Below, one piece after another: positions 35,116 through 35,442 of a DNA stretch of 63,808 nucleotides. Positions within the stretch are counted from its first letter, which is position 1, and each line of letters begins with the position of its first letter. Under the pieces are notes generated by a model, which had not been told where the DNA came from, made no database searches, and was given only the letters and a program-made list of their open reading frames with translations. Source of the stretch: a virus (taxonomy: Duplodnaviria; Caudoviricetes); the IMG/VR virus record IMGVR_UViG_3300037423_002669, positions 1 to 63,808 of that record. One strand, 5' to 3'. A program made the position numbers and the translations under genes.

Positions 35116-35175
35116 GGTCGGGACGCTACGTGTTCAACGTGCAGTGGCTGTCAAGGCCAACTGCGCAGCGCCCCG
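35116..35175 (-). ncRNA. Armless tRNA-like hairpin with anticodon-type loop CT-TGA-CA
   Basis: 12-bp stem CGGGGCGCTGCG/CGTAGCGTCCCG + ACC; inner stem TGGC-CTTGACA-GCCA. Confidence 0.55.
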
Positions 35176-35182
35176 GTAAACG

Positions 35183-35266
35183 GGTGGGACGGGAGCCGGA
35201 ATCGAACCGGCGACCTCCTGGACCGTGATGCTTGGTCAAGGGCTCTACCACTGAGCTACGCCATCC
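35183..35266 (-). ncRNA. tRNA-like element with extended anticodon arm and 9-nt loop
   Basis: Canonical D arm GCTC-AGTGGTA-GAGC and T arm GCCGG-TTCGATT-CCGGC; middle arm CCTTGACC-AAGCATCAC-GGTCCAGG. Confidence 0.75.
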
Positions 35267-35268
35267 AC

Positions 35269-35378
35269 TGGAGAACGGGGCTGGGCTTGAACCAGCGACC
35301 TCTGGCAATACCCACCGCCGAAGGGCCCTTTGGCGAATGGGGGCGAAGCCAGCGCTCTACCCACTGAGCTACCCGAAC
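35269..35378 (-). ncRNA. tRNA-like element with a 41-nt structured insert replacing the anticodon loop
   Basis: D arm GCTC-AGTGGGTA-GAGC; stem CTGGC/GCCAG enclosing a long hairpin; T arm GCTGG-TTCAAGC-CCAGC; TCCA end; two U-U mismatches in acceptor. Confidence 0.75.
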
Positions 35379-35382
35379 ATTG

Positions 35383-35442
35383 GGTCGGGACTGCTGAGTG
35401 GGCTGCAGCCGGATGTTCAGTCCAAGCTGCACAGCAACCCCG
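35383..35442 (-). ncRNA. Armless tRNA-like hairpin with anticodon-type loop CT-GAA-CA
   Basis: 11-bp stem CGGGGTTGCTG/CAGCAGTCCCG + ACC; inner TGCAGC..TGGA-CTGAACA-TCCG..GCTGCA. Confidence 0.55.

What the first reader, a model, noticed from the sequence alone, without database searches (positions are those of the whole stretch)
35116..35442. Two homologous 60-nt armless tRNA-like hairpins with different anticodon triplets
Seen: 35116-35175 and 35383-35442 both follow TAC, start CGGGG, end GTCCCG-ACC and are 60 nt long. Both have an 11-12-bp terminal helix and an inner stem capped by a 7-nt loop CT-NNN-CA (TGA = Ser, GAA = Phe). Inner sequences differ but pairing is kept. C1-G72/A73 resembles a tRNA-Pro acceptor end. 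A third element of similar size (34903-34962) also sits directly 5' of a tRNA. Armless tRNAs are known from some animal mitochondria; I know of none from phages. Inference: anticodon-loop display scaffolds.
Basis: partly seen in the sequence, partly recalled or inferred. Interest (0 to 1): 0.78.

Follow-up and report, generated by a model that had tools for sequence, protein, structure and literature searches.

The report
Two tRNA-Pro-derived hairpin RNAs in prophage
Two 60-base hairpins in a prophage's tRNA gene cluster are real, related to each other and descended from a proline tRNA gene, but they are no longer tRNAs; what they do is unknown, and nothing like them was found elsewhere.

Summary
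On the minus strand, 35175-35116 (E1) and 35442-35383 (E2) are 60-nt hairpins. Each has an 11-bp terminal helix, a 3' bulge of 11 or 7 nt, an inner stem with one bulged U, a 7-nt loop and an ACC tail. A model built from E1 alone finds E2 at 31.3 bits; the next best hit in the window scores 16.2.

New here: their ends are tRNA-Pro ends. Among 35 distinct tRNAs, the four tRNA-Pro rank first. They fail the tRNA models. They sit in one operon-like cluster with mostly deviant tRNAs, between an HNH gene and the terminase genes.

The two copies differ by 13 substitutions and 8 gap columns, yet they keep their pairing (random expectation 0.24%). That argues for selection on structure.

A sister contig carries identical copies. 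No other relative turned up in IMG/VR, GTDB genomes or JGI metagenomes using the patterns and models I could run. No RNA data exist.

Best reading: lineage-specific, non-decoding tRNA-Pro derivatives, probably excised by the tRNA-processing enzymes. The "anticodon display decoy" idea is untested. The third element (E3) is not a homolog.

The parts
35116..35175 (-). E1, 60-nt hairpin RNA gene derived from tRNA-Pro. Terminal helix 35175-35165 with 35129-35119; inner stem 35164-35156 with 35148-35141 (bulged U at 35159); loop CUUGACA 35155-35149; unpaired 3' stretch 35140-35130 (may form a 3-bp mini hairpin that looks like a decayed T arm); ACC tail 35118-35116.
   Evidence: fold, z -3.22; 95.9 bits to its own model; tRNA-Pro-like ends; loop position.
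35383..35442 (-). E2, paralog of E1. Terminal helix 35442-35432 with 35396-35386; inner stem 35431-35421 with 35413-35404 (bulged U at 35424); loop CUGAACA 35420-35414; unpaired 3' stretch 35403-35397; ACC tail 35385-35383.
   Evidence: z -2.94; 31.3 bits, E about 1e-5 with the E1-only model.
35443..35550 (-). Structured leader upstream of E2. 35460-35550 is identical in the sister contig. 35443-35459 is a variable A/U-rich linker (6 substitutions and 1 deletion). A weak promoter-like pair (TTGCGT, 18 nt, TACAAT) seen by eye was not accepted by the scan.
   Evidence: (0 promoter-like sites).
35272..35378 (-). tRNA-X, 4 nt downstream of E2. A cloverleaf with a 34-38-nt hairpin where the anticodon loop should be, and two U-U mismatches in the acceptor stem.
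   Evidence: (47.7 bits, 38 nt in place of 4).
35186..35265 (-). tRNA-L, 10-11 nt upstream of E1. Deviant anticodon arm (8-bp stem, 9-nt loop). It lies in one identical block with E1 in the sister contig.
   Evidence: (39.2 bits).
35027..35110 (-). tRNA-Tyr (GUA), 5 nt downstream of E1. Called by ARAGORN only; not hit by the Rfam tRNA model at E<=10.
34982..35018 (-). Intrinsic-terminator-like hairpin (34992-35018) followed by a U tract (34982-34990), after tRNA-Tyr.
   Evidence: -21.9 kcal/mol, z -3.44, 0 of 200 shuffles. Not found by the simple scan, whose loop limit it exceeds.
34904..34977 (-). E3, a degenerate tRNA-like cloverleaf ending in ACC. Not a homolog of E1/E2.
   Evidence: ARAGORN calls it only at the 60% threshold; no hit.
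34821..34896 (-). tRNA-Arg (UCU), the only member of the cluster that looks canonical.
   Evidence: 61.6 bits.

Best explanation
E1 and E2 are two paralogous small structured RNA genes, specific to this phage lineage, that descend from a tRNA-Pro gene.

What was kept and what changed. They kept the tRNA-Pro acceptor end (C1-G72, unpaired A, CC) and the 5' half of the D arm. They lost the cloverleaf and were remodelled into a rod of about 20 bp: an 11-bp top helix, an unpaired 3' stretch of 7-11 nt, a lower stem of 8-10 bp with one bulged U, and a 7-nt loop.

Shown: the structure, the paralogy, the tRNA-Pro descent, the position inside a same-strand tRNA cluster, and the retention of pairing despite divergence.

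Inferred:
- They are transcribed with the tRNA operon.
- The top helix plus the ACC tail looks like the acceptor/T-stem stack of a tRNA. RNase P would therefore cut at C1, and the 3' end would be made by RNase P cutting the next tRNA 4-5 nt downstream, followed by trimming and repair of the terminal A.
- That would release stable RNAs of about 60 nt.
- They do not decode. Most likely they act as non-decoding tRNA mimics that occupy some tRNA-handling factor. Which factor is unknown.
For: - Structure and strand: (z -3.22 and -2.94 on the minus strand; weaker on the plus strand; G-U pairs).
- Paralogy: (E2 at 31.3 bits against a window noise ceiling of 16.2).
- Structure kept through divergence. 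In the model-based alignment the copies differ at 9 of 38 paired columns and 12 of 26 unpaired columns (13 substitutions, 8 gap columns). E1 still pairs 19 of 19 and E2 18 of 19. Three pairs changed on both sides. In 100,000 trials of 13 random substitutions on E1, 18 or more pairs survived in 0.24%.
- tRNA-Pro descent. The pattern built from E1's ends finds one tRNA-Pro gene in each of 4 of 5 proteobacterial genomes. See also the alignment. The four tRNA-Pro score 20, 20, 17 and 10, against 4 for the next of 35 distinct tRNAs.
- Context: same strand and tight spacing with tRNAs, and a terminator after tRNA-Tyr.
- Module behaviour. In the sister contig (about 96% identical overall) the exact-match runs are 35116-35269 and 35377-35442. 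They stop at the outer edges of E1 and E2. The adjoining linker has 7 changes in 17 nt, and the neighbouring tRNAs are replaced or inserted.
- Not coding: the sister contig has an 82-nt insertion next to E1.
Against: - There is no expression or processing evidence of any kind.
- Only two genomes carry the elements, and their copies are identical, so all covariation rests on one paralog pair. In the column-shuffle control, 47 of 500 shuffles reached the observed values.
- The two genomes are mosaics with exact-match runs up to 1849 nt. Identity of E1/E2 between them is therefore weak evidence of selection.
- No homolog was found anywhere else.
- The neighbours look like a decaying array: tRNA-X, tRNA-L, E3, a tRNA-Tyr missed by Rfam, and in L002 a 6-nt anticodon loop and a changed tRNA-Arg loop. 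That favours a relic reading.
- The promoter scan found nothing.
- The final A of CCA is not encoded.
- RNase P recognition is argued from shape only.
Confidence: 0.5

Rival explanations
1. Neutral relics. E1 and E2 are far-decayed tRNA-Pro pseudogenes in a tRNA array that is falling apart. The hairpin shape is left over from the acceptor stem plus chance pairing in GC-rich DNA, or comes from a one-step fold-back mutation.
For: - Most cluster members are deviant. Rfam scores are 47.7 and 39.2 bits for tRNA-X and tRNA-L, none for tRNA-Tyr, and E3 is degenerate.
- The sister contig shows further damage: a 6-nt anticodon loop, a changed tRNA-Arg loop, and a tRNA-Tyr no longer called.
- No relatives exist elsewhere.
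- The inner stems are near-perfect inverted repeats, as a fold-back event would make.
Against: - E1 and E2 share derived features: the same deletion, the same bulged U, the same G5-U pair and a length of 60 nt. They then diverged by 13 substitutions and 8 gap columns without losing pairs (P about 0.002 under random substitution).
- The four pairs that extend the acceptor stem to 11 bp are not tRNA pairs, yet both copies have them.
- The linkers next to the elements vary while the elements do not.
Confidence: 0.22
2. The hairpins display anticodon-like loops (UGA, GAA) and serve as decoys or competitors for host anticodon nucleases.
For: - The loops are 7 nt with C32 and U33, and the two copies differ in the central triplet.
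- Phage tRNA clusters are known counter-defence loci, and phage tRNAs carry anticodon-loop changes thought to evade nucleases (abstract of PMC10264068; abstract of PMC13096335).
- The sister contig has a tRNA whose loop holds the same UGAACA as E2.
- The phage carries a HAD domain of the RNA-repair 'Swiss Army Knife' type at 57977-58477.
Against: - Position 37 is C in both loops, unlike tRNAs (recalled rule).
- The two loops can also be read as one motif with a shifted base, rather than as two anticodons.
- No wider family with varying triplets was found.
- No nuclease is known for this unknown host.
- Nothing here tests binding.
Confidence: 0.1
3. Cis-acting RNA elements of the operon. The hairpins act in the primary transcript, for example as processing punctuation or stabilisers for the tRNA that follows each of them. 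Alternatively they help polymerase read through the terminator at 34982-35018 into the packaging genes.
For: - Each element sits 4-5 nt upstream of a tRNA.
- E2 is the first structured module after the leader.
- A strong terminator-like hairpin stands between the cluster and the HNH, TerS and TerL genes.
Against: - tRNA operons do not need such spacers.
- The kept tRNA-Pro end and ACC tail have no obvious use in a purely cis role.
- No similarity to any Rfam cis-regulatory family.
Confidence: 0.1
4. Working armless tRNAs that decode UCA (Ser) and UUC/UUU (Phe).
For: - Helix lengths of 11 bp and 8-10 bp are close to the two limbs of a tRNA.
- The loop is 7 nt with U33.
- E2 combines GAA with an unpaired A before CC.
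Against: - No D or T arm and no 5' connector; C at position 37.
- The acceptor end is of the proline type while the triplets are not proline.
- Not called by any tRNA finder.
- Bacterial EF-Tu and ribosomes work with standard-sized tRNAs (introduction of PMC5389517).
Confidence: 0.02
5. DNA-level elements. The palindromes act as recombination or cassette borders for swapping tRNA modules, perhaps with the flanking HNH nucleases.
For: The break points between identical and divergent stretches of the two contigs fall at the element borders. HNH genes flank the cluster.
Against: - G-U pairs make the hairpins better on the RNA-sense strand than on the other.
- There is no third copy in the window.
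- No recombinase is linked to them.
Confidence: 0.03

Closest known systems
Bacterial tRNA-Pro genes (the inferred parent)
   Same: C1-G72, an unpaired A and CC at the 3' end. The first ~20 nt (acceptor strand, 5' D stem, D-loop GG) and the last 11 nt are nearly the same as in tRNA-Pro of Burkholderiales and Xanthomonadales genomes.
   Different: 60 nt instead of 76-77. There is no D stem closure, no proline anticodon and no working T arm; E1 keeps a possible 3-bp remnant and E2 none. The G5-C pair has become G5-U. Neither Rfam nor ARAGORN recognises them.
Armless mitochondrial tRNAs of enoplean nematodes and mites (group 5 in PMC4394434; passages read)
   Same: No D or T arm. Two helices joined by a short unpaired stretch. 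A lengthened anticodon-type stem (5-9 bp there, 8-10 bp here). A 7-nt loop.
   Different: Those are under 50 nt, with a 4-5-bp acceptor stem and connectors on both sides (3-11 nt and 5-14 nt). E1/E2 are 60 nt, have an 11-bp top helix and no 5' connector. They are phage-borne, and there is no sign that they decode.
[quoted passage not shown]
   Same: Small non-tRNA RNAs encoded inside a phage tRNA cluster, with no known function.
   Different: That the T4 RNAs are longer is recalled, not checked. Homology is not claimed.
Hairpin or minihelix substrates of bacterial RNase P with a 3' RCCA motif (abstract start of PMC12710915, seen only in the search listing; the rest recalled)
   Same: A long terminal helix followed by purine-C-C. 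This is the shape that RNase P and the CCA-adding enzyme accept in place of a whole tRNA.
   Different: Those are laboratory substrates. Cleavage of E1/E2 has not been tested, and the final A is not encoded.
Phage tRNAs with altered anticodon loops proposed to evade host anticodon nucleases (abstract of PMC10264068)
   Same: Phage tRNA-cluster setting and unusual loop sequences.
   Different: Those are complete, decoding tRNAs. E1/E2 are not.
Non-standard bacterial and phage tRNAs with 8/4 or 9/3 acceptor/T-stem layout (PMC5389517; abstract and passages)
   Same: If its mini hairpin forms, E1 could be drawn with a 9-bp acceptor stem and a 3-bp T-like stem.
   Different: Those tRNAs keep D and variable arms and were shown to insert amino acids in E. 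coli. E2 cannot form the T-like stem, and the minimum-energy fold of E1 does not use it.

Membership tests
tRNA (Rfam RF00005 / ARAGORN) | Cloverleaf with D and T arms, scoring above the model threshold | tested here: not met
   No RF00005 match at E<=10 on 76-nt and 75-nt slices or in the 1.2-kb scan. ARAGORN gives no call at these places in bacterial, -mt, -mtx or intron modes.
tRNA (Rfam RF00005 / ARAGORN) | 7-nt anticodon loop with U33 and a purine at 37 | tested here: not met
   The loops are 7 nt with U at the second place, but C at the sixth. The purine-37 rule is recalled.
Descendant of tRNA-Pro (homology, not function) | The acceptor strands and 5' D-arm half resemble tRNA-Pro more than any other isoacceptor | tested here: met
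   The four tRNA-Pro rank 1-4 of 35 distinct tRNAs (scores 20, 20, 17, 10; next 4). Pattern hits are tRNA-Pro genes in 4 of 5 genomes. Alignment.
tRNA-Pro as a ProRS substrate | A73 and G72, plus G35 and G36 in the anticodon (recalled identity set) | tested here: not met
   The end is A with C1-G72, but the central triplets are UGA and GAA.
Armless mitochondrial tRNA (group 5 of PMC4394434) | Under 50 nt, acceptor stem 4-5 bp, connectors on both sides (L1 3-11 nt, L2 5-14 nt) | tested here: not met
   60 nt, 11-bp top helix, L1 = 0 nt, L2 = 11 or 7 nt. Definition taken from passages.
Armless mitochondrial tRNA (group 5 of PMC4394434) | Transcribed, end-processed and used in translation | not testable with these tools
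   No RNA data could be used.
RNase P / CCA-enzyme minihelix-type substrate | About 12 stacked base pairs ending in an unpaired purine plus CC(A) | tested here: met
   11 bp (12 if G12 pairs across) followed by A-C-C in both copies. The terminal A is not encoded.
RNase P / CCA-enzyme minihelix-type substrate | Is actually cleaved at +1 and given CCA | not testable with these tools
   Needs an enzyme assay.
Intrinsic terminator | GC-rich hairpin directly followed by a U run | tested here: not met
   0 terminator-like sites in 34400-36000. E1 is followed by ACC then four U; E2 has no U run.
Any other Rfam 15 family | Match at or near the gathering score | tested here: not met
   Best overlaps are 15 bits (snoR135, gathering 45) and 8.8 bits (sR7, gathering 37).

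The most novel reading that the evidence does not exclude
A temperate phage of soil proteobacteria has turned a proline tRNA gene into two minimal, armless tRNA mimics. The host's own tRNA-processing enzymes cut them out. With tRNA-like ends and anticodon-like loops, they act as decoys or inhibitors of tRNA-targeting defence enzymes. The other deformed tRNAs of the cluster (a cloverleaf with its anticodon loop replaced by a hairpin, and odd loops) would serve the same purpose. That would make the cluster a battery of tRNA-shaped counter-defence RNAs rather than a supply of adaptors.
Probability: 0.12. Interest if true: 0.8.

Novelty: new variant of a known kind. Interest (0 to 1): 0.42.

Why it matters
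Phage tRNA clusters are now read as counter-defence loci, but attention has gone to complete tRNAs. This cluster has only one clearly standard tRNA. Two of its members are a proline tRNA stripped to an acceptor-type helix plus a stem-loop, and both copies have kept their pairing while diverging.

If these RNAs are made and stable, they would be a compact natural example of a tRNA gene recruited to a non-decoding role in a phage. They would also be a handle for finding the tRNA-binding factor they meet. If they are relics, the locus is still a clear snapshot of how tRNA genes decay and are remodelled in a prophage.

Tried and rejected
**Expression.** No RNA holder is listed for the 821-nt stretch; 8 DNA runs are listed. 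I laid four DNA runs. X3 is the window type, X4 is the sister-contig type with no change inside E1 or E2, and X6 and X7 cover only short tRNA-like pieces. No new variants came out of this.

**GenBank phages.** A distant blastn of 1001 nt matched 2 records, both only a 59-nt tRNA match.

**Relatives by gene.**
- Of 80 TerL-related IMG/VR loci, only L002 has the cluster.
- The 16 HNH-related loci are distant.
- The 80 TerL-related GTDB loci are at most 70% identical, and none has a match to model R2 at E<=1.
- 95 viral loci gave 3 junk hits at E 0.23-0.6.
- Whole records of four relatives hold no tRNA cluster. Three have no tRNA match and one has a single tRNA. L002's own record has 3.

**Pattern scans.**
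Of 241 distinct matches screened, only E1, E2 and one unrelated stretch reach 11 pairs, and one more reaches 10. The four I checked have no tRNA in their locus, and the one I read in detail lies in an open frame.
- Ends plus CU-NNN-CA in IMG/VR: a complete scan gave 29 stretches, and only the sister contig is real.
- A stricter pattern found 0 in genome contigs and 2 junk hits in metagenome contigs. This pattern may be too strict for distant relatives.
- A pattern for shortened tRNA-Pro in IMG/VR gave 36 stretches and no E-like hairpin.

**Model R2 on 151 genomes of the family of G001.** 7 genomes matched at E<=0.01. I rejected all of them. The loci hold 0 tRNAs. In 5 of the 7 an open frame of 200 aa or more with GC3 of 0.85 or more covers the hit. 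The other two sit at the ends of a LysR gene and a GST gene. R2 E-values are therefore too optimistic in GC-rich genomes.

**Other checks.**
- Promoter and terminator scan: 0 and 0. My by-eye promoter is not supported.
- MAFFT alignment of E1 and E2 was not structure-consistent, so I replaced it with the model-based alignment A5.
- I considered and dropped type III antitoxin repeats, CRISPR-repeat mimics, integron attC sites, att-site remnants and a protein-coding reading. None has a matching feature in the sequence. An 82-nt indel in the sister contig rules out a shared open frame.
- Supplementary files of papers were not opened. Supplementary figures of PMC5389517 on phage tRNA clusters might bear on how unusual such clusters are.
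Full report
**What is there.** The window is an IMG/VR provirus record of 63.8 kb with about 68% G+C. The finding lies on the minus strand inside a tRNA cluster. The cluster sits between a 268-aa HNH endonuclease gene (35872-36678) and a small HNH gene, the small and large terminase genes and the portal gene.

Read 5' to 3' on the minus strand, the order is:
- a structured leader
- E2 (35442-35383)
- tRNA-X (35378-35272)
- tRNA-L (35265-35186)
- E1 (35175-35116)
- tRNA-Tyr (35110-35027)
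- a terminator-like hairpin with a U tract (35018-34982)
- E3 (34977-34904)
- tRNA-Arg (34896-34821)

E1 ends 5 nt before tRNA-Tyr, and E2 ends 4 nt before tRNA-X.

**The observation.** Both elements are 60 nt, begin CGGGG and end GUCCCG-ACC. Both fold into:
- an 11-bp terminal helix;
- an inner stem (5+3 bp in E1, 7+3 bp in E2) with a single bulged U three pairs below a 7-nt loop (CUUGACA, CUGAACA);
- an unpaired stretch on the 3' side only (11 nt and 7 nt).

The energies are -30.3 and -28.1 kcal/mol, with z-scores of -3.22 and -2.94 (3 and 2 of 200 shuffles fold as well). The complementary strand folds less well (z -1.98 and -1.55). The helices contain G-U pairs that only work on the minus strand. 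The inner hairpins alone also stand out (z -2.5 and -3.5; 11 and 1 of 500 shuffles).

A covariance model made from E1 alone finds E2 at 31.3 bits (E about 1e-5). The best unrelated hit in both strands of the window is 16.2 bits. So the two are paralogs, and there is no third copy in the window. It is better described as a 74-nt degenerate cloverleaf whose 9-bp closing helix is perfect in the sister contig.

**Where they come from.** The first 15 letters of E1 differ from the start of tRNA-Pro genes at two positions, and the last 10 at one. A pattern made from these ends picks out exactly one gene in each of 4 of 5 proteobacterial genomes that carry related prophages. Each of those genes has an NGG anticodon.

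I compared the 5' 20 nt and the 3' 12 nt of E1 and E2 with 35 distinct tRNAs. These were the 30 best tRNA loci of one Variovorax genome plus the four tRNA-Pro. The four tRNA-Pro score 20, 20, 17 and 10, and the next best (Ala) scores 4.

The alignment shows what was kept and what was lost:
- Kept: the acceptor 5' strand, the 5' half of the D stem and the D-loop GG.
- Missing: about 11 nt (the 3' half of the D stem and the 5' strand of the anticodon stem).
- Changed: the sequence that follows now pairs with the D-arm remnant.
- In E1, the unpaired 3' stretch lines up with the T arm and can still form a 3-bp stem with a 7-nt loop.

E1 and E2 share derived states that tRNA-Pro lacks: the same deletion, the bulged U, a G5-U pair and four extra pairs that lengthen the acceptor stem to 11 bp. 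They therefore descend from one already remodelled ancestor.

They are no longer tRNAs by any detector I could run. Rfam's tRNA model gives no match at E<=10 even on 76-nt slices. ARAGORN gives no call in bacterial, mitochondrial or intron modes.

**Evidence that the structure is maintained.** In the model-based alignment the copies differ by 13 substitutions and 8 gap columns. Differences fall at 9 of 38 paired columns and 12 of 26 unpaired columns. E1 still forms 19 of 19 model pairs and E2 18 of 19, and each forms an unbroken fold of its own. Three pairs changed on both sides, and two insertions in E2 are matched on the opposite strand.

Random placement of 13 substitutions on E1 keeps 18 or more pairs in 0.24% of 100,000 trials. 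The weakness is that this is one pair of sequences. The column-shuffle control is reached by 47 of 500 shuffles.

**The sister contig.** One other IMG/VR contig (L002/L245) has a TerL that is 100% identical in protein and about 96% identical DNA overall. It carries E1 and E2 without a single change, while the cluster around them differs:
- tRNA-X has a different hairpin at the same place.
- An extra tRNA with a 6-nt loop, UGAACA, is inserted right after E1.
- The tRNA-Arg loop is changed.
- The 17-nt linker before E2 has 7 changes.

The exact-match runs (35116-35269 and 35377-35442) end at the outer borders of E1 and E2. This fits discrete conserved modules. However, the two genomes are mosaics with exact runs up to 1849 nt, so the identity alone proves little.

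**Search for a wider family.** I found none, within the limits of the tools.
- Ends plus CU-NNN-CA in IMG/VR: a complete scan returned only the sister contig among 29 stretches.
- A stricter pattern: 0 in 185,579 species genomes and 2 chance hits in JGI metagenomes.
Of 241 distinct matches screened, none is a convincing relative.
- The two-copy model R2 found nothing at E<=1 in 80 related prophage loci and only junk in 95 viral loci.
- R2's 7 hits in 151 genomes all lie in or at the ends of genes, with no tRNA nearby.
- Relatives with 61-73% TerL identity have no such cluster.

**How it most likely works.**

Shown: a pair of structure-conserving paralogs, derived from tRNA-Pro, that sit in register with tRNA genes on the transcribed strand.

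Inferred:
- The 11-bp helix followed by A-C-C has the shape of the acceptor/T-stem stack. RNase P and the CCA-adding enzyme accept that shape in minihelix substrates (recalled; an RCCA dependence is stated in the abstract start of PMC12710915 in the listing).
- Cleavage at C1, cleavage at the 5' end of the next tRNA 4-5 nt downstream, 3' trimming and addition of the last A would release a stable RNA of about 60 nt.
- It would not decode. The end is of the proline type while the triplets are UGA and GAA, position 37 is C, and there is no elbow.
- The most economical function is a non-decoding tRNA mimic that occupies a tRNA-handling factor.

The decoy-for-anticodon-nuclease version is attractive for three reasons. 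Current work treats phage tRNA clusters as counter-defence loci (abstracts of PMC10264068 and PMC13096335). The cluster is otherwise deformed. The phage carries an RNA-repair-type HAD domain. Nothing here tests it, however.

The main rival is plain decay. Most neighbours are deviant and the lineage stands alone. Against that stand the shared derived architecture and the kept pairing.

**Comparison with what is known.**
- The parent is tRNA-Pro.
- The nearest shape is the armless mitochondrial tRNAs. E1/E2 fail their definition: no 5' connector, an 11-bp rather than 4-5-bp top helix, and 60 nt rather than under 50 nt (passages of PMC4394434).
- The nearest situation is T4's RNA C and RNA D, small RNAs from its tRNA region with unknown roles (passage of PMC3014915).
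- Searches for 'armless tRNA' with 'bacteriophage' (5 papers, none on phages), for tRNA-like decoys and for pseudo-tRNA or tRNA arrays in phages turned up no description of such elements.

I therefore class it as a new variant of a known kind, a tRNA-derived small RNA in a phage tRNA cluster. It is of moderate interest until expression is shown.

Noticed in passing
window 35272-35378 (-); L002 1236-1352 (+): tRNA-X keeps the acceptor, D and T arms, but a 34-38-nt hairpin stands where the anticodon loop should be. The sister contig has a quite different hairpin sequence at the same place. ARAGORN in intron mode reads a CUA anticodon split by a 34-nt insert.
   Followed up: partly
window 35186-35265 (-): tRNA-L (ARAGORN: Leu-AAG; Rfam 39.2 bits) has an 8-bp stem with a 9-nt loop in place of a normal anticodon arm, and a C-C mismatch in the acceptor stem. 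It is identical in the sister contig.
   Followed up: partly
window 34904-34977 (-): E3 is a degenerate cloverleaf ending in ACC. Its 9-bp closing helix has one mismatch in the window and none in L002. ARAGORN calls it only at a 60% threshold.
   Followed up: partly
L002 1515-1587 (+): The sister contig has an extra tRNA (Rfam 54.7 bits) inserted just after E1. Its anticodon loop has only 6 nt, UGAACA, the same letters as in E2's loop.
   Followed up: partly
window 34859-34865 (-) and L002 1842-1848: The tRNA-Arg anticodon loop reads UUUCUAA in the window and UAACUAA in the sister contig and in run X4. That change removes the universal U33.
   Followed up: no
window 35027-35110 (-): The tRNA-Tyr called by ARAGORN gets no Rfam tRNA match at E<=10. 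Its T loop reads CUCGACU. ARAGORN no longer calls the L002 copy.
   Followed up: no
window 35780-35823: Three direct repeats of a 10-mer (CTTTGTGGAG type on the minus strand) lie between the HNH gene and the leader and are kept in L002. They may be a regulator binding site.
   Followed up: no
window 35150-35591 (-): CTTGAC occurs four times on the minus strand within 442 nt: in E1's loop, in the tRNA-L stem, in a leader hairpin loop and upstream. The whole window holds 35 copies on both strands. This is a post hoc observation. None has a -10 box at the right distance.
   Followed up: partly
window 57977-58477 (-): A 166-aa protein matches PF18143, the HAD domain of 'Swiss Army Knife' RNA repair proteins (E 2.6e-28), and phrog_1818 (function unknown).
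   Followed up: partly
window 38000-42000: G+C falls to 58-60%. The only family match there is GP88 (PF17338) at 39172-40014 (-). This may be an acquired accessory region.
   Followed up: partly
window 14566-14647 (+): ARAGORN calls an 82-nt tRNA-Met here. Rfam's gathering search does not, and it lies inside a high-GC3 open frame on the other strand (14281-14928). It is probably a false call.
   Followed up: partly
L467 5716-5777 (+), another IMG/VR contig: A 62-nt stretch looks like a tRNA-Pro(UGG) with acceptor, D and anticodon arms but no T arm. ARAGORN called no tRNA in that locus.
   Followed up: no
window 21012-21034 (-): A 23-nt hairpin has the same end letters as E1/E2 (CGGGG...UCCCGACC). 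It scores 14.7 bits with the E1 model and its fold z is only -1.0, so it is probably chance.
   Followed up: partly
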